Source of the DNA: a virus
Strand: one strand, 5' to 3'
DNA length: 64,000 bases
Virus genome (UHGV): UHGV-0091736
The position numbers and the translations under genes are program-made. Below are positions 3,979 to 39,540 of this stretch, one piece after another; the stretch's first letter is position 1, and each line of letters opens with the position of its first letter. Under the pieces are notes generated by a model, which had not been told where the DNA came from, searched no databases, and was given only the letters and a program-made list of their open reading frames with translations.

Positions 3979-4206
3979 CTAGATCAAATCATAATATTGA
4001 ATAATGTCTGAGAGCTTGAACTCTCGAATCTCATCTTTCTCTACATCAATCGCTGTCATAATCCAACAAGGTTTGCCACTGTTATGAAAACGGGAGCTAG
4101 CAACGGAGGTTCGGAGTGGAATAACGGACCGGTCAGCAACCTCGCCTCTCCAATTACGATAGCGAAAGCGAAGCACTTGTTGCGTAGATTTTTGATCATC
4201 ACTCAT
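3979..4206 (-). CDS. Hypothetical protein (about 75 aa)
   Basis: ATG overlaps the stop of the upstream HNH gene (ATGAGTGA), suggesting translational coupling; the longer track ORF 3979..4347 overlaps that gene. Confidence 0.35.
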   Translation of the reverse strand: MSDDQKSTQQVLRFRYRNWRGEVADRSVIPLRTSVASSRFHNSGKPCWIMTAIDVEKDEIREFKLSDIIQYYDLI

Positions 4207-4600
4207 TTCCTTTTTTGAATTGTTTTCTTGCATCATTCTCTTCTCTTGTTTTAATCTTATGACAAGGATCTTTACACAGAACCTGAAAACCTTCTTTCTC
4301 ACACAGGGCACGAGAGATGATTTCATCCCAAGTCGCTTCATGATCAAGAGGAACGATAGGATTTATATGATCTATAGCCATATCCTTTACAGGGTGGTCA
4401 GAACCACACATGGCACACTTAAAGTGCATTGCCAGTCTACCTGTCTTTGGATTAATCTTCTGCTCTGTCTTGGCGTCTGCTAGTGCATCGAACATGGGCT
4501 TCCACTTTCTAGTCAGAGAACGAATCCCTGACTTGATGAAAGAATTATAACGAGCTTCAGTCCACGTTCCACTACAGCGTGTCTTCTCAGACTTCGCCAT
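4199..4600 (-). CDS. HNH endonuclease
   Basis: CAMCG ... AIDHINP ... CHKIKT spacing typical of HNH zinc-finger nucleases. Confidence 0.6.
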   Translation of the reverse strand: MAKSEKTRCSGTWTEARYNSFIKSGIRSLTRKWKPMFDALADAKTEQKINPKTGRLAMHFKCAMCGSDHPVKDMAIDHINPIVPLDHEATWDEIISRALCEKEGFQVLCKDPCHKIKTREENDARKQFKKGNE

Positions 4601-9997: not shown

Positions 9998-10524
9998 CAT
10001 ATATAGTGTAGGAACTACCGGAAGGTAGTAGGTTTTGTCCAAACAAAAGTCTCTTTAGAGTTATTTATTGGGGATTGCCTCTTATAAACCCGAGACTGTC
10101 TAGCAGTTACATAAGCCCTAGCTCTCTGTAGCTGCATACTTATGATTAAATTTCATGGTAGTATATCTCTAAGTGCTATAATGTATATAAGTTATAGCTG
10201 ATAAAGTTATTGCACGGGACTGACGACGATAAGGCGCAGACGACAATCTCTCATAAGTTTGTAAGAAATTGAGAGGCTACCGGAAGGGCAGGAGCCACCT
10301 GCGAGATAAAAATAGAGAATTAAGGAATCCTTGATTTAGGTTGTAGGGACTCCTAGGGACTTTGATTCTCTATTTAAAAGAATAAATAATTATTATATCT
10401 AACACTAAACAAATTGATACAAAAACAAGAAACTTCTTGTAAATACTCATTAATTATTACCTAAATAGTTAACTAGTTTACTTAATATTAATCTCTGATA
10501 GAATCTTTAGATACTACAGGTTCT

Positions 10525-15493: not shown

Positions 15494-15745
15494 TTAAACT
15501 CCTTTAGGGAATGGGATGAGGTTTTCTACTGCAACACGAAAAGATTTTTCTACATTCTTATTCTTATAAGAAATGAATTTACCATCAGCACCACGAAGGA
15601 TTACGTTAGTACGAGCTGTATTGGAAACTAAAGTGATCATAGAGATGGTGTTATTTTTTGAGTTGTTGTAGTTGTTATCGAAAGTCCACTTATCCAGACG
15701 ATCATCCATTACATCAATAATAGTTACAGTTTTTACGATAGACAT
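15494..15745 (-). CDS. Hypothetical protein, paralog of 15208..15492
   Basis: Shared motifs with the adjacent gene. Confidence 0.4.
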   Translation of the reverse strand: MSIVKTVTIIDVMDDRLDKWTFDNNYNNSKNNTISMITLVSNTARTNVILRGADGKFISYKNKNVEKSFRVAVENLIPFPKGV

Positions 15746-15776
15746 ATTTGTTACCTAAGAAGTTTAGTTTGGTTTA

Positions 15777-15809
15777 TATAAAAGAAAAGGCCACCCATTT
15801 GGGTAGCCT
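15777..15809 (-). terminator. Rho-independent terminator
   Basis: Hairpin GGCCACCC-ATTT-GGGTAGCC with T-run on the minus strand. Confidence 0.45.
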
Positions 15810-15813
15810 TATA

Positions 15814-16131
15814 TCATGATGAGCTTAAAGCTCCTTTGCGTGCTCCAGCTGCTTTTCCAGCTCGATCACCACTTTTGCCGCCGTTTGAACGGTTTGAGCT
15901 GACTGATTCAACACGTAAGTTGCTTGACGCATTAGAGCCTCCAGACTTGATAGCTCGTTTGTGTCCAACGTCTTTACCTCTGACAGCAGCTTTTCCATCG
16001 CGCTTTTCAACGATGCGACGTGCACGGTGGCGCTGAGCATCTCCGCTCTTGCTCCCAATGCCTGTTTCACCACGGGCAATTGCGGTACGTCTTTCTTGTG
16101 CATAATCTCTCTTTCCTACATGGTCTGCCAT
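15814..16131 (-). CDS. Basic Gly/Ser/Arg/Lys-rich protein; an alternative overlapping frame 15825..16103 also encodes a helical 92-aa ORF
   Basis: AAGGAG 7 nt upstream of ATG at 16131; the two frames cannot be separated by eye. Confidence 0.35.
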   Translation of the reverse strand: MADHVGKRDYAQERRTAIARGETGIGSKSGDAQRHRARRIVEKRDGKAAVRGKDVGHKRAIKSGGSNASSNLRVESVSSNRSNGGKSGDRAGKAAGARKGALSSS

Positions 16132-16167
16132 TTAAAACTCCTTAACATATCAGTGTACACTAAGGAG

Positions 16168-16176
16168 TATACATTA
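16168..16176 (-). promoter_or_regulatory. TAATGTATA promoter-like element
   Basis: Exact 9-mer on the minus strand about 37 nt upstream of the start at 16131. Confidence 0.4.
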
Positions 16177-16187
16177 TAAGTTACTGT

Positions 16188-17906
16188 TTAAGCTTTCTTT
16201 TCCATTGCTTTAACAATCGCCTTACAGAAACCAGAACGAACAATATCATCTGATTCACCATCTACAATCTCAGCAAACTCATACAGATCATGTTCATCAA
16301 TAAAGTTAGTAGCCCAAGTAAGACCACTCTCACGACCACGCATATCATGCTGGTTAGTATCACCCATGCAGAACAGCTGAGAGGTTTCTCCCAATCGAGT
16401 CATGATTGAGAAGGCTTCATCTTTAGTTGTGTTCTGGAACTCATCCACGATAACAATGGCATCATTGAAAGAGCGACCACGGAGATATTCCAGAGGTACA
16501 AATTCAATGTTACCATTTCCGATTTGGCATTCATAGAACCCCTTACCATATCGCTGAGTAATAACATCAATGATAGGCATCAGGTATGGTTCAAACTTCT
16601 CACGCATCCCCCCCGGAAGTAACCCAAGAGAGTTACCCATGCCGACCGAAGGGCGACTCAGAATGATCTTCTGAATCTTACCACTCTTCAGTGCATCAAT
16701 AACTGTGGAAGTGATTACAAAGGTCTTACCACAGTTACCTGTCACGAAAATGTTATCATCTCGACGGAGCAACAGAGCACCTGTTGAGGTTGTAAAGCAA
16801 TATTTAAAACCATCCTCCGTCTTCATCTTTGTGATCACAGCTTTCCCAGATTGTGGGTTGTTTGGGGTAATACTGATATGTGTCTGTTTAGAGAAATAAA
16901 CACGATACTCTAGAGATTTACGAGTATATCCACCATACTCCCGACCAACTCTGTCGTAAGTTATGATAGATGATTTGTAACCACACTGCATTCCTACAAA
17001 CTGGATATAGTCTGCATCATCTTTATCGGAAGTAAAGAAAGGTGGTAGTCTATTTCCTTGTAGGGCAAAACCCCCGTCCCAGAATTTAATCTCATCAAAG
17101 ATGATTTTAGCATCACTCTTGTTACACAAAGGCCAGTCTTTATACCTTTTAGTCGCACCTAGAAGAGAGAAAGATATTACATGAAACCCTGTATCATCTG
17201 ACTTTTCTGAGTAATCTAAATGGAGAGTATCCAATAACTCTTTGAGTCGAGAAATCTTCCTCTCTTTCTTTAATCTGAAGACGAATCGCGAGGTGGACTC
17301 TGTTTCCAAGTGGGCATCAGCCTTGATGGCAACATGAAGACGTAATTCAGGTTCAGATAGACCTAAACTTTTCCCTGAAACAAAGTTGGATGTAGTTTTA
17401 ATTAGACCCTCAAACCCTATCTTCTTCTTGTGGTGCCTTGAAAGAAGATCAGATACCTTGATTTTGTTCGCTTTGTCTTTATCTCCCTTACGATAATAAA
17501 CGACATTATGGTCATCACATAACGCCTGAGATATCCCACGGTATGTTTTAAACAAGTTCAACTCTTTACACTCTTGTTTAATATAAGCTACAGGTTTTTC
17601 TAAATGAGACTCTCCTGTGGTTAAGTTTACTGCTGTTATTAAATCACCTTCCACATAGTCAGAAATCTTTTTCCATCCAAACTCTGAGAGAAACTCGGTA
17701 TCCTTATCAACACAGCCCGCAGGAGCGTCTGTGAACACAACTTGTTTAGTCTTAATAGCATTGAGTAGCTCAGACTGAAACTGGTTCTGAGGGACTACAG
17801 GCTTTGCTAAAACCACCTCTTCATACTCTCGCTTACCCTTACGAGTAACAAGTGCTTCCCGACGAAGGTCTTTCCGTGATTCTTTCCTTGATTGACGACG
17901 ACTCAT
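16188..17906 (-). CDS. phoH: PhoH-like ATPase interrupted by an intein
   Basis: N-extein ends DAPAG, C-extein begins CGKTF; joined gives Walker A APAGCGKT, then Walker B IVIVDEFQNTT. Confidence 0.75.
   Translation of the reverse strand: MSRRQSRKESRKDLRREALVTRKGKREYEEVVLAKPVVPQNQFQSELLNAIKTKQVVFTDAPAGCVDKDTEFLSEFGWKKISDYVEGDLITAVNLTTGESHLEKPVAYIKQECKELNLFKTYRGISQALCDDHNVVYYRKGDKDKANKIKVSDLLSRHHKKKIGFEGLIKTTSNFVSGKSLGLSEPELRLHVAIKADAHLETESTSRFVFRLKKERKISRLKELLDTLHLDYSEKSDDTGFHVISFSLLGATKRYKDWPLCNKSDAKIIFDEIKFWDGGFALQGNRLPPFFTSDKDDADYIQFVGMQCGYKSSIITYDRVGREYGGYTRKSLEYRVYFSKQTHISITPNNPQSGKAVITKMKTEDGFKYCFTTSTGALLLRRDDNIFVTGNCGKTFVITSTVIDALKSGKIQKIILSRPSVGMGNSLGLLPGGMREKFEPYLMPIIDVITQRYGKGFYECQIGNGNIEFVPLEYLRGRSFNDAIVIVDEFQNTTKDEAFSIMTRLGETSQLFCMGDTNQHDMRGRESGLTWATNFIDEHDLYEFAEIVDGESDDIVRSGFCKAIVKAMEKKA
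16734..17714 (-). mobile_element. Intein (about 327 aa) inserted in the PhoH P-loop
   Basis: Starts with Cys (CVDKDTEF), ends with Asn (GN) before extein Cys; size leaves room for an endonuclease domain. Confidence 0.55.
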
Positions 17907-29680: not shown

Positions 29681-31711
29681 TTAACCTCTATTCAATGAAC
29701 ATTTAGGAGAATTACAATAAACTTGATTCATAGAACCAAGCGTACAACTTTCAGCATCGCGCCACGGAATCTGCTTAAAACACTCTGAGCAGTATCCGAG
29801 GGTTGACCACATGGCTTTGGTGAAGTCAGTGCTTCGGTTTCCGTCGAAGCTGACAACAGTTTTGCGGAGAGCTGTTCGTGATTCAGGAAACACACCTGCT
29901 TTCTCAGCAGGTTCCTCCTTTTTTGGCTTAGTTGAGATTGCAAAAATACTGTTGCTACGTTTCTCAACATAAGCATCAACAACATCCTCCAGAGTGATGC
30001 CTGTTTGTTTCGCTGAGGAAGGTAATACAGTCATACGACCAATCATTTCTTCAGTTACACGTAAAGCAAACTCAGGACGACGGGTGTTTGTTGTATCTGT
30101 TGCTTTAATCCAGACATAACCATCTTTGATCGTAGCATTAGATACTTTCTTCTTTACTTCTACAGCGCAGACTTTACAGATATCTTCACCACGAAGACGA
30201 CTAAGTTCATCATCGAACTCATTCTCTGTTTTAACCTCACCACAGATTTCACAAACACCAATAGGAGTCTCCTCCTCTTCTTCCTCTTTAGGTTTAGTCA
30301 AACTTTCCAGACACTCTGGATGCCAGTAGCATTGATATGCGAAGACTGCTTTAGGTGCATCCTTCCAATCAATGTGCTTGTCACAACCACCACAATCACC
30401 ATGAGAGTGTGCTTCCCAGAATTTACGAGTGATAGTAACGCCATTCTTGTTGACGAAACTATCATTCATATCAAAAGGGATATCATCATCAAAATCAGCA
30501 GTAGTTGACTCAGGCTCCTTTTTCTCCAGAGATGGGTCAACAAAACGACCTGCTGTGATCACTAAACGAACCATAGCATTGACTTCGGAGATGCAGGATA
30601 CTGTCCCACGGTAAACAATTTTAGGGTCTTTCAGGGCATCCTGATAGGCCTTAATGTCTACGTTATGAACATCACCTTCGATATACTCTTGAGATTTCTC
30701 ATCGTAGATATAACCAATCATCTTACCACGAGAAGGGACAGCACCAGAAGTTGCATAAGGAACAAACTCATGCGGAGTGATTTCCACAGTCATGTCGCGG
30801 CGAATATCAATGTTTCGATCGCTTGCGATTTTGTTTTGACTTACCACTGCGTTTCTTCGACGAACATCTGCCGCCGTCACCCCCGGCTTCGTGTCGTAAG
30901 GATTGCTTGTACTGCTTTTTGAGGAGCTTTGATAGTTGCTTTGGCTGTAGTTGTTCGAGTAGTAACTGGCCCAACGATTGACTACCGTAAAAACCGGAAG
31001 CTCATGGGCGACCTCTTCAACCAGTGTCATGCTGTTATTTGACATGTCAAAGATGTACTCTGTACCAACCTTACATTCAAAATGCTCATCAATGCGGTTC
31101 TTGTGAGACTTCGAACGCTTCAGAATCCACATCAGCATATCTTCTTCAGAAGCACCAAACCAATCTTTATTACAACGTGCGAGATGGAAAGGACGTTCTT
31201 CGTTACGAATAATATGAAGCCGGTTATCAGAAGCATCATGCCAGATTAAAGTGAAAGCACCATCCAACTTTTGAATAGTCTCTGCTGCACCAATGGTGTT
31301 AATAGAGTGGCAGATGTTCTCGCTGTCTACCTCGAAGTTTTTACTGTCAGGTAACAGGTCTTGGTCAATCAAGGTTCCGTTATGAACCAGAGTGATGTTA
31401 CCGTGTTGGAAAGGATGGGCGTTCTTGGCGTTAACTGCACCTTTCGTTGCATGACGGCTGTGACCAACAATCCATGAAGGTGCTACAGTGTAAGATGTTT
31501 CACCAGTGGTATGCTTCTTATACTCATCTTGTAGGATGAATGCGAAAGAAGGAAGGGCTTCTTTATAAGTGAAGACCTCCTTAGTGCTCTTACGCTGACC
31601 AAAGATACCAGAAGAATGTTGTCCTCGGAATACCCCAGCATAAAAGAGTTGGTTGAATACGTCTAAATCGGTGCTTGACAGATTACCGCCAGCTAATACG
31701 ATGCCACAAAT
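29681..31711 (-). CDS. Class-II (Ntn) glutamine amidotransferase fused to a Cys-rich zinc-binding C-terminal domain; probable non-AUG (ATT) start
   Basis: Frame open 113 codons upstream of the track start, to a TAG; begins I-C-G-I-V-L-A-G-G with AGGTGG 9 nt upstream; RGQHSSGI, LVHNGTL; C-terminal HGDCGGC, CEICGEV. Confidence 0.65.
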   Translation of the reverse strand: MCGIVLAGGNLSSTDLDVFNQLFYAGVFRGQHSSGIFGQRKSTKEVFTYKEALPSFAFILQDEYKKHTTGETSYTVAPSWIVGHSRHATKGAVNAKNAHPFQHGNITLVHNGTLIDQDLLPDSKNFEVDSENICHSINTIGAAETIQKLDGAFTLIWHDASDNRLHIIRNEERPFHLARCNKDWFGASEEDMLMWILKRSKSHKNRIDEHFECKVGTEYIFDMSNNSMTLVEEVAHELPVFTVVNRWASYYSNNYSQSNYQSSSKSSTSNPYDTKPGVTAADVRRRNAVVSQNKIASDRNIDIRRDMTVEITPHEFVPYATSGAVPSRGKMIGYIYDEKSQEYIEGDVHNVDIKAYQDALKDPKIVYRGTVSCISEVNAMVRLVITAGRFVDPSLEKKEPESTTADFDDDIPFDMNDSFVNKNGVTITRKFWEAHSHGDCGGCDKHIDWKDAPKAVFAYQCYWHPECLESLTKPKEEEEEETPIGVCEICGEVKTENEFDDELSRLRGEDICKVCAVEVKKKVSNATIKDGYVWIKATDTTNTRRPEFALRVTEEMIGRMTVLPSSAKQTGITLEDVVDAYVEKRSNSIFAISTKPKKEEPAEKAGVFPESRTALRKTVVSFDGNRSTDFTKAMWSTLGYCSECFKQIPWRDAESCTLGSMNQVYCNSPKCSLNRG

Positions 31712-31790
31712 TTTCTAATCCACCTGAAGGGTAAACCCTTTCATCTAATTAACCTTTAAATTGTGCCCCTTTACCAGAGGCACCCATTGA

Positions 31791-37024: not shown

Positions 37025-37220
37025 ATTTCCTCTCGTTGAATTTAAAAAAGGACTCTCCGAAAAGAGTCAAGCTTTAAACACAAAAAGATATTACCCAATA
37101 TCTGTGGATAACCTGCTCTTAAAATATCTATCCGACGGATGTTTGAGGAATATCCCTCGCCCTAGCATCGGCCCCATACGGGAAATATATTAAGGTTAGG
37201 TTAGTTGAGTCAGAATAACT

Positions 37221-39240: not shown

Positions 39241-39540
39241 AACATTTATATAAGACTTGCTTAGATAAAGATTCAATAAAATAGGGGGAGGGGACGAATC
39301 CTCCCTTATCCTATTAGTCAATATTGCATGTAAGATCTAACAATCGGTTGCCTTTGTAGGAATAAGCGTTATGCTAATCCAGCACTAAACTCCCGCCCCC
39401 TTAGTGGGCTGGGTTATTAAAGGGTAACGCCCTTATGGGCTAGTTACATGAATGTTAGTTTGATAGGAGATCTGAAGTCCTATCTCAAAGGACTCTCGTA
39501 AGAATCCTTCACGATAGTCACGCTTTGAGCGTGGTAGCTC
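39241..39540. other. 300-nt noncoding region with several stable hairpins
   Basis: No ORF; inverted repeats GGGAGG/CCTCCC, AAGGG/CCCTT, AGTCCT/AGGACT. Confidence 0.3.

What the first reader, a model, noticed from the sequence alone, without database searches (positions are those of the whole stretch)
15814..16131. Two long overlapping ORFs in different frames on the same strand
Frame A (15814-16131) encodes a basic Gly/Ser/Arg/Lys-rich protein with a good Shine-Dalgarno and a TAATGTATA element upstream. Frame B (15825-16103) encodes a 92-aa helical protein with ordinary composition. Both look protein-like, so this is either a dual-coding locus or one is an artefact.
Basis: seen in the sequence. 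Interest (0 to 1): 0.4.

Follow-up and report, generated by a model that had tools for sequence, protein, structure and literature searches.

The report
Known phage gene, spurious overlapping ORF
One of the two overlapping reading frames is a real, already annotated small phage gene with its own promoter and terminator, while the other is most likely an accidental open frame produced by the first gene's unusual composition, so the locus is ordinary apart from a short unexplained stretch of frozen DNA inside it.

Summary
Both ORFs exist, on the minus strand of a Kuravirus (phiEco32/SU10-like) coliphage. Frame A (16131..15814) is the phi32_58/SU10_056 homolog: PHROG 4590 (E=9e-41), found in several phage families, detected by mass spectrometry in SU10, with an H-N-N (HNH-like) core. 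It has a published gp36-sigma promoter element (TAATGTATA), a strong Shine-Dalgarno and a terminator.

Frame B (16103..15825, +1) shows no sign of coding:
- No family and no homologs outside this locus.
- Its second codon position is the most variable (46 of 92 sites); pN/pS is about 2.2.
- Its replacements are radical and no more conservative than chance (z=0.25-0.58).
- It is broken by stops in most distant homologs.

Only Leu/Ile/Val/Met codons can make +1 stops, and frame A has 12% LIVMF against 26% genome-wide. The gene is also TA-depleted in every phase. An open +1 frame then has a probability of about 0.13-0.2, or about 0.4 with the TA bias.

One thing stays unexplained. A 47-69-nt block (16050..15982) is identical in 93 of 99 relatives, and gene A has the second-lowest synonymous divergence of 36 genes. 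At least two recombination breakpoints fall in that block. A real frame B is not excluded (about 10%).

The parts
16168..16176 (-). TAATGTATA promoter element for the phage sigma factor (phiEco32 gp36 type), upstream of gene A
   Evidence: Exact match. Conserved in Kuravirus, Nieuwekanaalvirus and ECBP2 relatives. The literature places tAATGTAtA upstream of phiEco32 gene 58 among the six experimentally detected gp36 promoters (PMC4331800; PMC8948821; PMC4281155).
16138..16143 (-). Shine-Dalgarno AAGGAG of frame A, 6 nt before the ATG
   Evidence: Sequence. Best duplex with the anti-SD is -8.7 kcal/mol at spacing 5. Conserved in relatives.
15814..16131 (-). Frame A, the real gene: homolog of phi32_58 / SU10_056, a 105-aa basic protein with a small HNH-like (H-N-N) core and a disordered Gly/Ser/Lys-rich tail
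   Evidence: ORF. Annotated CDS in relatives. PHROG 4590, E=9.4e-41. tblastn hits in 254 phage records across several families. 89 protein clusters. dN/dS about 0.17 and codon-position variability 20/9/46. SU10 CDS56 detected by MS, 2 peptides (PMC4281155).
15892..15969 (-). HNH-like core of frame A (V55-G-H57 ... G64-G65 ... N71-L72 ... N80)
15825..16103 (-). Frame B: a 92-codon ORF in the +1 frame of gene A, most likely a non-functional by-product of A's composition
   Evidence: ORF. No Pfam or PHROG family. tblastn hits only the 99 Kuravirus-type records. Only 2 same-locus clusters in 5.8 billion proteins. Its second codon position is the most variable. pN/pS about 2.2. Replacements are no more conservative than chance. 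Closed by stops in L008, L022-L024, L026-L030, L038 and L041.
15982..16050 (-). Nucleotide-frozen block inside gene A (codons 28-50). The 47-nt core at 16004-16050 is invariant across three genera. Its cause is unresolved.
   Evidence: No synonymous variation in codons 28-41 in 20 genomes. 93 of 99 records are at least 99% identical, against 0 of 94 for the adjacent 69 nt. It is the longest 3-way exact run lying inside an ORF. It is not frozen in distant or intermediate homologs. Recombination breakpoints map within it. No Rfam hit and no special fold.
15777..15810 (-). Intrinsic terminator directly after gene A: a 10-bp stem (6 GC pairs), a 4-nt loop and a T-run
   Evidence: Terminator scan. 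A terminator is annotated at the same place in SU7.
16137..16168 (-). 8-bp inverted repeat ACTCCTTA / TAAGGAGT that could sequester the SD in transcripts reading through from upstream. It overlaps the end of the promoter element.
   Evidence: Inverted repeat I2. MFE fold pairs the SD region. Conserved in relatives. The function is an inference.

Best explanation
The locus holds one real gene. Frame A is the homolog of phiEco32 gene 58 / SU10 CDS56. It sits in a compact unit made of a gp36-sigma promoter element, a strong Shine-Dalgarno, a 105-codon ORF and an intrinsic terminator, within the middle (replication) gene cluster.

Its product is a small basic protein with a minimal HNH-type (H-N-N, beta-beta-alpha) core and a disordered Gly/Ser/Lys tail. 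It is most likely a DNA-binding or nicking accessory protein of the replication module. In the Kuravirus clade the usual 'DH' is 'GH', so it may have lost or weakened metal binding.

Frame B is a compositional by-product. A +1 stop (TAA/TAG/TGA) needs a frame A codon with T at position 2 that ends in A or G, meaning Leu, Ile, Val or Met. Frame A has very few such residues, and the gene is also TA-poor in every phase. The +1 frame is therefore nearly stop-free, and it translates into an L/A/E/K-rich sequence that looks helical.

Shown here: the anatomy of the unit, the family and cross-family conservation of A, the lack of protein-level constraint on B, and the compositional expectation. Taken from the literature: A's protein detection and the promoter. 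Inferred: the biochemical role of A.
For: Identity of A:
- PHROG 4590, 254 phage records, 89 clusters.
- the annotated CDS is phi32_58 / SU10_056.
- PMC4281155: CDS56 detected by MS and shared by all five C3 phages; a middle promoter lies between CDS56 and CDS57.
- PMC4331800: tAATGTAtA upstream of gene 58.

Coding signature of A:
- dN/dS 0.17.
- Variable sites at codon positions 1/2/3 are 20/9/46 of 92.

HNH core:
- Invariant H57 and N80, near-invariant G64, G65, N71, L72.
- Pfam HNH or HNH_3 hits in relatives.

B is not coding:
- No family and no homologs beyond the same locus.
- At matched phages A identity is 96% against B 71% (SU7), and 88% against 66% (Bas89).
- pN/pS about 2.2 in frame B.
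- 68% of B replacements have negative BLOSUM62 scores: E/V 18 times, Q/L 14, R/L 11.
- Conditioned on transition versus transversion, z=0.25 and 0.58, inside the range of the +1 frames of 23 control genes.
- The sequence upstream of B's ATG is not conserved and its SD is weak and badly spaced.
- The +1 frame is closed in 11 other homolog lineages.

Composition:
- LIVMF 12.4% against 26.2% genome-wide.
- P(open) 0.13-0.20.
- TA observed/expected 0.38-0.58 against a genome median of 0.79, in all phases; the +2 frame also has fewer stops.
- With a TA penalty calibrated on phase 3|1, P(open) is about 0.4.
- PaP3's homolog also has an open +1 frame, which an old annotation mistook for the gene. This shows the artefact recurs in the family.
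Against: - The +1 frame is open in all 20 sampled Gordonclarkvirinae and in six more diverged metagenomic relatives (L034, L036, L037, L039, L040, L042). Under a star-tree neutral turnover model without TA bias this is improbable, roughly 0.001-0.03.
- Gene A has the second-lowest synonymous divergence of 36 orthologous genes: pS 0.38 against a median of 0.61.
- A 47-69-nt block is invariant at synonymous sites in 93 of 99 genomes. It starts about 10 nt upstream of an internal frame B ATG, which resembles the frozen translation-initiation regions seen elsewhere in these genomes.
- B's first ATG (Tyr10 = TAT followed by G) is kept in every open lineage. TAT is 63% of Tyr codons.
- AF2 gives B a confident-looking helical hairpin.
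- The published proteomics searched only annotated proteins, so B was never tested.
Confidence: 0.8

Rival explanations
1. True dual coding. Frame B, or a shorter version starting at its internal ATG (B-Met22, about 16040), is an overprinted gene specific to Gordonclarkvirinae. It would encode a two-helix protein whose conserved core (RAEMLSATVHVASLKSAMEKLLSEVK) is what freezes the block.
For: - The +1 frame is open in the whole clade and in intermediate relatives.
- The frozen block coincides with B residues 19-41 and begins about 10 nt before an in-frame ATG preceded by GGGAG/GGAG.
- Gene A shows excess synonymous constraint.
- AF2 predicts a helical hairpin with pLDDT 74.
- Embedded +1 genes are known in phages, for example spanins (established knowledge).
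Against: - Outside the block B changes radically and at its second codon position.
- There is no conservative bias.
- The block is not conserved in the other lineages that also have an open +1 frame, and L040 loses the internal Met. Openness and freeze are therefore decoupled.
- Nieuwekanaalvirus changes the 'core' radically: L to H, E to K.
- No homologs anywhere else.
- The SDs are weak or badly spaced and B's upstream context is not conserved.
- TA depletion in phases irrelevant to B explains most of the stop avoidance.
Confidence: 0.1
2. The frozen block is a cis-acting nucleic-acid element embedded in gene A and independent of frame B. It could be a protein-binding site, an mRNA regulatory or processing site, or a similar element specific to the E. 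coli Gordonclarkvirinae.
For: - Absolute nucleotide invariance with a sharp left boundary at codon 27/28, while lineage-specific variation continues up to that boundary.
- It is the only long 3-way frozen run inside an ORF. All longer ones are intergenic or at gene starts, so regulatory-type.
- It contains the window's only CGTGCACG 8-bp palindrome and a GAAAAGC direct repeat.
- The freeze is clade-specific even though the amino acids are the same in other families.
Against: - No Rfam family.
- No fold better than shuffles, z=-0.5.
- No shared motif with other frozen patches or elsewhere in the window.
- No promoter-like match.
- No function can be named.
Confidence: 0.3
3. The frozen block and the low synonymous divergence are products of recombination. 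The block would be a crossover 'linker' between mosaic modules, kept homogeneous by repeated exchange or gene conversion among co-circulating coliphages. Homing endonuclease genes that insert next to gene A may help drive this.
For: - SU7's gene A is a recombinant. Its left part is nearest myPSH2311 (3 differences against 23) and its right part is identical to IME267 (0 against 23).
- Paul and myPSH2311 switch in the same interval.
- Long exact runs between the window and SU7 cluster at 16.0-18.4 kb.
- HNH or Endo VII genes lie immediately downstream or upstream of gene A in many relatives. The 3' end of gene A is recoded in the Gordonclarkvirinae genomes with a downstream endonuclease gene.
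Against: - A sweep or conversion should give different tract ends in different lineages, yet the left edge is the same in all lineages.
- Identity in 93 of 99 genomes across three genera with pS of about 0.6 elsewhere needs very frequent conversion of a tiny tract, or underlying constraint.
- Genomes with and without the endonuclease gene carry the same block, so it is not the endonuclease's immunity-determining target.
Confidence: 0.3
4. A programmed +1 ribosomal frameshift joins the N-terminus of A to the C-terminus of B, with the frozen block as the shift signal.
For: B is in the +1 frame and open to near the end of A. An internal SD-like GGAG lies in the block.
Against: - No recognizable +1 slippery site or hungry or stop codon follows the GGAG (sequence).
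- The MS-identified mass of SU10 CDS56 matches unshifted A at 10.8 kDa.
- The B-frame C-terminus is unconstrained.
Confidence: 0.02

Closest known systems
phiEco32 gene 58 (phi32_58) / SU10 CDS56 (SU10_056); PHROG 4590
   Same: Orthologous gene at 97-99% amino-acid identity, in the same position between PhoH and the small genes upstream of DNA polymerase. It has the same tAATGTAtA promoter element, SD and terminator. The protein was detected by MS in SU10 (PMC4281155).
   Different: Nothing substantive. In this window the upstream PhoH carries an intein-like insert. No relative's annotation calls the +1 ORF, apart from 2 metagenomic gene calls.
HNH (beta-beta-alpha-Me) nucleases, especially small phage HNH proteins (Pfam HNH PF01844 and HNH_3 PF13392; structures I-HmuI 1u3e, Gme HNH nickase 4h9d, GVE2 HNH 5h0o)
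   Different: - The domain is very small, with no zinc-binding Cys pairs.
- The window protein has Gly where the usual metal-ligand Asp precedes the His.
- It does not itself reach any Pfam HNH model at E of 0.1 or better.
- It has a long basic disordered tail.
- It sits in the replication module under its own middle promoter, not next to terminase, and is not a free-standing homing gene.
Overprinted same-strand embedded genes in phages (for example lambda Rz1 inside Rz, or the o-spanin within the i-spanin)
   Same: A long ORF fully nested in the +1 frame of a real gene on the same strand, open in all close relatives.
   Different: - No lipoprotein signal, and no Cys at all.
- No purifying selection on the embedded frame.
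- No conserved start context.
- No homologs.
- Openness is explained by the host frame's composition.
PaP3 ORF.38 (Bruynoghevirus)
   Same: The same gene family (58% identity in frame A) with the same artefact. The +1 frame is open for 92 of 97 codons.
   Different: In PaP3 the old annotation calls the +1 ORF (514-783 of L025) instead of the HNH-like frame. Other Bruynoghevirus records annotate a 'hypothetical protein' or an 'HNH endonuclease' under the match.

Membership tests
PHROG 4590 / phi32_58 family | Significant full-length match to the family profile | tested here: met
   E=9.4e-41, residues 4-101 against profile positions 2-99 of 100. 97-99% identity to phiEco32 and SU10 orthologs.
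HNH (beta-beta-alpha-Me) nuclease superfamily | Conserved His (general base) at the end of the first strand | tested here: met
   H57 is invariant in 43 homologs and lies in predicted strand 53-57.
HNH (beta-beta-alpha-Me) nuclease superfamily | Structural Asn and a distal Asn or His metal ligand in the helix (H-N-N/H pattern) | tested here: met
   N71 is at least 90% conserved and N80 is invariant. N80 lies in predicted helix 77-82.
HNH (beta-beta-alpha-Me) nuclease superfamily | Acidic metal ligand immediately before the His ('DH', as in I-HmuI-type enzymes) | tested here: not met
   The window and all Gordonclarkvirinae have G56-H57. Most other family members have D-H. Catalytic competence of this clade's protein is therefore doubtful.
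HNH (beta-beta-alpha-Me) nuclease superfamily | Match to a curated HNH profile above threshold | tested here: not met
   The window protein has no Pfam hit at E of 0.1 or better. 17 of 43 relatives hit PF01844 and 11 of 43 hit PF13392, best E 2e-5. A PDB profile search found nothing.
HNH (beta-beta-alpha-Me) nuclease superfamily | Beta-beta-alpha fold similar to solved HNH domains | tested here: inconclusive
HNH (beta-beta-alpha-Me) nuclease superfamily | Metal-dependent DNA nicking or cleavage activity | not testable with these tools
   Needs biochemistry. The tf-type nick motif TACTRTGMC is not enriched in the window: 3 matches against about 2 expected.
Overlapping (overprinted) protein-coding gene, for frame B | Second frame kept open in relatives beyond what composition predicts | tested here: inconclusive
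   Open in 20 of 20 clade members and in 6 intermediate relatives, but closed in 11 other lineages. P(open) is 0.13-0.2, or about 0.4 with the TA bias. The joint significance depends on how independent the lineages are.
Overlapping (overprinted) protein-coding gene, for frame B | Purifying selection on the second frame's amino-acid sequence | tested here: not met
   B's second codon position is the most variable, at 46 of 92 sites. pN/pS is about 2.2. The BLOSUM test gives z=0.25 and 0.58, within the control range.
Overlapping (overprinted) protein-coding gene, for frame B | Reduced synonymous rate of the host frame along the overlap | tested here: inconclusive
   Gene A's pS ranks 2nd lowest of 36. 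The deficit is concentrated in blocks and is confounded by recombination.
Overlapping (overprinted) protein-coding gene, for frame B | Conserved translation-initiation signals for the second frame | tested here: not met
   The ATG is kept, but the SD is weak and too close (-4.9 kcal/mol, spacing 2) and the upstream sequence differs between genera.
Overlapping (overprinted) protein-coding gene, for frame B | Direct evidence of translation (peptides or ribosome footprints) | not testable with these tools
   The SU10 proteomics searched predicted proteins only (PMC4281155). A search for Kuravirus transcriptomic studies returned 8 papers and none was seen to bear on this locus; no ribosome-profiling search was run.
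phiEco32 gp36-dependent promoter | Single consensus element tAATGTAtA upstream of a middle or late gene, at the position of the gene 58 promoter | tested here: met
   Exact TAATGTATA at 16176..16168, 36 nt upstream of the ATG. Conserved in relatives. Literature. The transcription start 6-8 nt downstream was not testable here.
Intrinsic (Rho-independent) terminator | GC-rich hairpin followed by a T-run right after the stop codon | tested here: met
   A 10-bp stem with 6 GC pairs, a 4-nt loop and TTCTTTT. SU7 annotates a terminator at the same place.

The most novel reading that the evidence does not exclude
Gene 58 of the E. coli Gordonclarkvirinae carries a second functional layer. This would be either a young overprinted +1 gene whose conserved core is the 47-69-nt frozen block, or a cis-acting element embedded in the coding sequence. 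In either case the open +1 frame, the very low synonymous rate and the TA depletion would not all be by-products. The narrow version, that frame B is a translated functional protein, has a probability of about 0.1. The broad version, that some extra sequence-specific function lies in the block, has about 0.35-0.4.
Probability: 0.12. Interest if true: 0.5.

Novelty: not a real feature. Interest (0 to 1): 0.15.

Why it matters
The main value is as a cautionary example. Genes for Gly/Ser/Arg/Lys/Ala-rich proteins that are poor in hydrophobic residues automatically produce long, stop-free +1 frames. Those frames translate into Leu/Ala/Glu/Lys-rich sequences that look helical and that AlphaFold models with apparent confidence. 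The artefact has already misled one annotation (PaP3 ORF.38) and two metagenomic gene calls.

The real content is a known, conserved, separately promoted small HNH-like gene of unknown role in the replication module of phiEco32-like phages. The family is shared with PaP3/LUZ24-like and other podophages.

If the residual signals turned out to be functional, this would be a compact case of multilayer coding in a phage under consideration for therapy. Those signals are the nucleotide-frozen block and the second-lowest synonymous rate among 36 genes. The present evidence does not require that.

Tried and rejected
- **RNA element in the block.** Rfam at permissive E-values on 15700-16260, and at the gathering threshold on the whole window, gave nothing. 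The block folds no better than shuffles (z=-0.5). The whole transcript gives z=-1.8, driven by the terminator and a 5' hairpin.
- **Host mimicry or host-derived sequence.** No match in 5,426 E. coli genomes.
- **Repeat or shared motif.** No meaningful k-mer is shared between the block and the rest of the window or the other frozen patches. Only short repeats lie inside the locus.
- **Sigma-70 promoter inside the gene.** None was found; the single hit in the scanned stretch lies outside the gene on the other strand.
- **Homing-endonuclease target as the cause of the freeze.** Rejected, because genomes with and without the endonuclease gene share the identical block. The recoded part is the 3' end of gene A.
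- **Frame A as the nickase of tf/LUZ24-type localized nicks.** The tf consensus TACTRTGMC is not enriched or strand-biased here. This remains only a lead.
- **Prophage sRNA paper (PMC12803456).** Irrelevant to this locus.
- **Pavlova 2012 (PMC3275717).** Could not be read.
- **IMG/VR scan.** Gave only 6 loci, so relatives were taken from the phage collection and from metagenomic contigs.
- **First BLOSUM test.** It gave z=3.3, but that came from ignoring transition bias. It disappeared when conditioned on transition versus transversion.
- **PaP3 frame error.** My first frame assignment for PaP3 (L025) was wrong and was corrected.

Full report
**1. What is there**

The window is a Kuravirus-type coliphage (Gordonclarkvirinae, phiEco32/SU10-like), about 92% identical to Bas91 and MN05 around the locus. 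Both ORFs lie on the minus strand.
- Frame A runs 16131..15814 (105 aa).
- Frame B runs 16103..15825 (92 aa), shifted +1 relative to A.

The locus is a compact expression unit:
- TAATGTATA at 16176..16168
- AAGGAG at 16143..16138
- the frame A ATG at 16131
- the stop codon TGA at 15816..15814
- a strong hairpin plus T-run at 15810..15777

TAATGTATA occurs 5 times in the window against 0.85 expected. According to the literature, the tAATGTAtA element upstream of phiEco32 gene 58 is one of six experimentally detected promoters of the phage sigma factor gp36 (PMC4331800; PMC8948821). The SU10 paper places a middle promoter between CDS56 and CDS57 (PMC4281155).

**2. Frame A is a real, known gene**

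All annotated relatives call frame A: SU10_056, Bas91_0051 and phi32_58.

Evidence for its reality:
- It matches PHROG 4590 at E=9.4e-41.
- tblastn finds it in 254 phage records. These include Pseudomonas PaP3/LUZ24-like phages, Aeromonas, Vibrio, Photobacterium and Proteus phages, and Grimontviridae.
- It has 89 clusters in the large protein collection.
- SU10 proteomics detected CDS56 (10.8 kDa, 2 peptides, 18.3% coverage), and the paper lists it among genes shared by all five C3-morphotype phages. Frame A's computed mass is 10.9 kDa.
- It evolves as a coding frame. Pooled pN/pS is 0.17, and variable sites at codon positions 1/2/3 are 20/9/46 of 92.

The family alignment has invariant R8, E13, H57 and N80, and near-invariant G64, G65, N71 and L72. 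This is an H-N-N pattern.

Support for the HNH reading:
- 17 of 43 relatives hit Pfam HNH and 11 hit HNH_3 (best E 2e-5), although the window protein itself hits nothing.
- An AF2 model has pLDDT of about 75-80 for residues 30-80, with strand 53-57, strand 72-76 and helix 77-82.

Frame A is therefore a minimal HNH-like protein with a basic helical N-terminal part and a disordered Gly/Ser/Lys tail. In Gordonclarkvirinae the usual 'DH' is 'GH', so nuclease activity is uncertain. Its function remains an inference: a DNA-binding or nicking accessory protein of the replication module.

**3. Frame B does not behave as a gene**

- It has no Pfam or PHROG family.
- tblastn finds it only in the 99 Kuravirus-type records.
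- A search of 5.8 billion proteins returns only two clusters at 88-99% identity, which are the same locus called in the other frame.
- At matched phages frame A stays 96% identical while B drops to 71% (SU7). For Bas89 the figures are 88% and 66%.
- In B's register the most variable codon position is the second (46 of 92 sites).
- pN/pS is about 2.2.
- 68% of the replacements caused by A-synonymous changes have negative BLOSUM62 scores: E/V, Q/L, R/L and E/G dominate.
- Conditioned on transition versus transversion, the replacements are no more conservative than chance (z=0.25 and 0.58). That lies inside the range of the +1 frames of 23 ordinary control genes.
- B's first ATG has a weak SD that sits too close (-4.9 kcal/mol, spacing 2), and the upstream sequence differs between genera.
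- The +1 frame is interrupted by 1-7 stops in L008, L022-L024, L026-L030, L038 and L041.

**4. Why the +1 frame is open**

A +1 stop requires a frame A codon of the form xTA followed by A or G, or xTG followed by A. Only Leu, Ile, Val and Met codons can provide that. Frame A has 12.4% LIVMF against 26.2% in the genome's long ORFs.

Resampling synonymous codons for the same protein gives these probabilities:
- An open +1 frame of at least 96 codons in 13-20% of trials.
- An ATG-started ORF of at least 92 codons in 3.6% of trials.

The family-wide picture agrees. +1 frames carry few stops everywhere, whereas +2 frames carry 6-24. PaP3's +1 frame is open for 92 of 97 codons, and an old annotation took it for the gene.

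Translated, a Gly/Ala/Arg/Lys/Ser-rich frame yields Leu/Glu/Lys/Ala/Gln-rich +1 codons. This explains both the 'ordinary, helical' look and the AF2 two-helix model with pLDDT 74.

**5. Signals that could have pointed to dual coding, and how they resolve**

(a) Recurrent openness.
- The +1 frame is open in all 20 sampled Gordonclarkvirinae and in six metagenomic relatives of 70-83% identity that sit in a different gene context.
- With a star-tree turnover model each lineage would stay open with P of about 0.2-0.5. The joint outcome would then be mildly to moderately improbable.
- The open lineages are not independent, however. Their pS is 0.5-0.6, against 0.73-0.84 to the closed L038 and L041.
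- Gene A in this clade is also TA-depleted in every phase. Observed/expected is 0.38-0.58 against a genome median of 0.79.
- That depletion includes phase 3|1, which cannot create +1 stops, and the +2 frame has fewer stops too.
- Calibrating a TA penalty on phase 3|1 alone raises P(open) to about 0.4 for the window clade and P(stay open) to about 0.45-0.5 for the intermediates.
- No compelling stop-avoidance signal remains.

(b) Low synonymous divergence.
- Gene A's mean pS among the window, SU7 and EP335 is 0.38. That is the 2nd lowest of 36 genes, whose median is 0.61.
- The deficit is concentrated in patches, above all codons 28-50.

(c) The frozen block.
- Codons 28-41 show no nucleotide variation in 20 genomes.
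- The 69-nt block is at least 99% identical in 93 of 99 records. The adjacent 69 nt never reach 99% and fall below 90% in 42 records.
- Genome-wide, exact 3-way runs of at least 44 nt occur 11 times in 29 kb. All the longer ones are intergenic or span gene starts, so this is the longest one inside an ORF.
- The freeze is clade-specific. Distant and intermediate homologs with the same amino acids vary freely there. This includes lineages whose +1 frame is open, so the freeze and the open frame are decoupled.
- Nieuwekanaalvirus changes the right part of the block with radical frame B replacements.
- The block has no Rfam match, no special fold, no host match and no repeat partner.
- At least two recombination breakpoints map inside it. 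SU7's left part is nearest myPSH2311 (3 differences against 23) and its right part is identical to IME267 (0 against 23). Paul and myPSH2311 switch in the same interval.

I cannot decide between a cis-acting element and a recombination linker kept homogeneous by exchange. A frame B core peptide is the least supported option.

**6. Verdict**

The interpretation 'one frame is an artefact' is the supported branch. What is really present is an already annotated gene with a published promoter, plus a spurious +1 ORF produced by composition. I put about 0.8 on this, about 0.1 on genuine dual coding, and the remainder on unknowns. The unexplained frozen block is the only item that might repay an experiment.

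**7. Context noticed**

- The PhoH gene immediately upstream carries a 327-aa in-frame insert that splits its Walker-A motif (APAG|C...GN|CGKT). The flanks are 99-100% identical to SU10 PhoH, which is intein architecture.
- Many relatives have homing-type endonuclease genes (HNH, HNH_3, Endo VII) directly downstream or upstream of gene A. The Gordonclarkvirinae genomes with a downstream one have a recoded 3' end of gene A.
- An 8-bp inverted repeat could hide gene A's SD in read-through transcripts but not in transcripts started at its own promoter.

Noticed in passing
window 16188-17906 (-); insert about 16734-17714: The PhoH-like gene is 572 aa instead of 245. A 327-aa in-frame insert (Cys65 ... 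Gly-Asn391, followed by Cys392) splits the Walker-A motif APAG|CGKT. The flanking parts are 99-100% identical to SU10 PhoH. This is intein architecture, though no Pfam intein or homing-endonuclease family hit the insert at E of 0.01 or better.
   Followed up: partly
L003 2277-2768, L013 709-, L019 693-, L014 6-386, L038 1030-1521, L034 1041-1448 (relatives of window 15780-16190): The flanks of gene A are a hot spot for free-standing endonuclease genes (HNH, HNH_3, Endonuclease VII) in different lineages. The Gordonclarkvirinae genomes with a downstream one (L003, L013, L019) have the last ~10 codons of gene A recoded, mostly synonymously, as expected for a homing target or immunity region.
   Followed up: partly
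window 15982-16050 (-), core 16004-16050: A 47-69-nt block inside gene A is frozen at synonymous sites in 93 of 99 related genomes, while neighbouring codons vary freely. It is the longest such run inside an ORF in 29 kb of 3-way alignment. It contains the window's only CGTGCACG palindrome. Recombination breakpoints (SU7; Paul and myPSH2311) fall within it.
   Followed up: yes
window 15814-16131 (-): Gene A in the Kuravirus clade is strongly depleted in TA dinucleotides in all three phases (observed/expected 0.38-0.58 against a genome median of 0.79, below the 5th percentile). It also has the 2nd-lowest synonymous divergence of 36 genes. No cause was established; mRNA stability or high expression is a guess.
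   Followed up: partly
window 16137-16168 (-): An 8-bp inverted repeat ACTCCTTA / TAAGGAGT pairs gene A's Shine-Dalgarno with sequence that overlaps the end of the TAATGTATA element. If transcription starts 6-8 nt after the element, as published, own-promoter transcripts would lack the anti-SD arm and read-through transcripts would have the SD sequestered. A 10-nt palindrome AGTGTACACT lies between the arms.
   Followed up: no
L025 (PaP3, AY078382.2) 514-783 against 486-779: PaP3's annotated ORF.38 is the +1 ORF overlapping the HNH-like frame, not the conserved frame, so it is probably a misannotation. One Kuravirus record labels gene A 'Cas8 protein' (Ptacy1532), and some records label the downstream 83-aa gene 'autotransporter adhesin'. 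Both look like automated over-annotation.
   Followed up: partly
window 46264-46356, 46416-46550, 46773-46958, 47205-47242; also 10296-10382, 39462-39516, 42023-42076, 31704-31757, 37093-37143: Long stretches are identical across three genera and lie outside ORFs of at least 40 aa. Several include an RBS and the first codons of genes. The cluster at 46.2-47.3 kb is about 1 kb of patchy near-perfect conservation. No Rfam family matches anywhere in the window at the gathering threshold.
   Followed up: no
window codon 56 of gene A (15964-15966): All Gordonclarkvirinae orthologs have Gly before the invariant His ('GH'). Most other family members have Asp ('DH'), the usual metal ligand of I-HmuI-type HNH enzymes. 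This suggests the clade's protein may be catalytically impaired.
   Followed up: partly
window 3979-4341 (-) and 4199-4600 (-): The only gene-sized ORF with lower synonymous divergence than gene A (pS 0.37, pN 0.18) partly overlaps the next ORF. It lies where SU7 annotates a hypothetical protein next to an HNH endonuclease. It may be a wrongly framed ORF or another recently exchanged segment.
   Followed up: no
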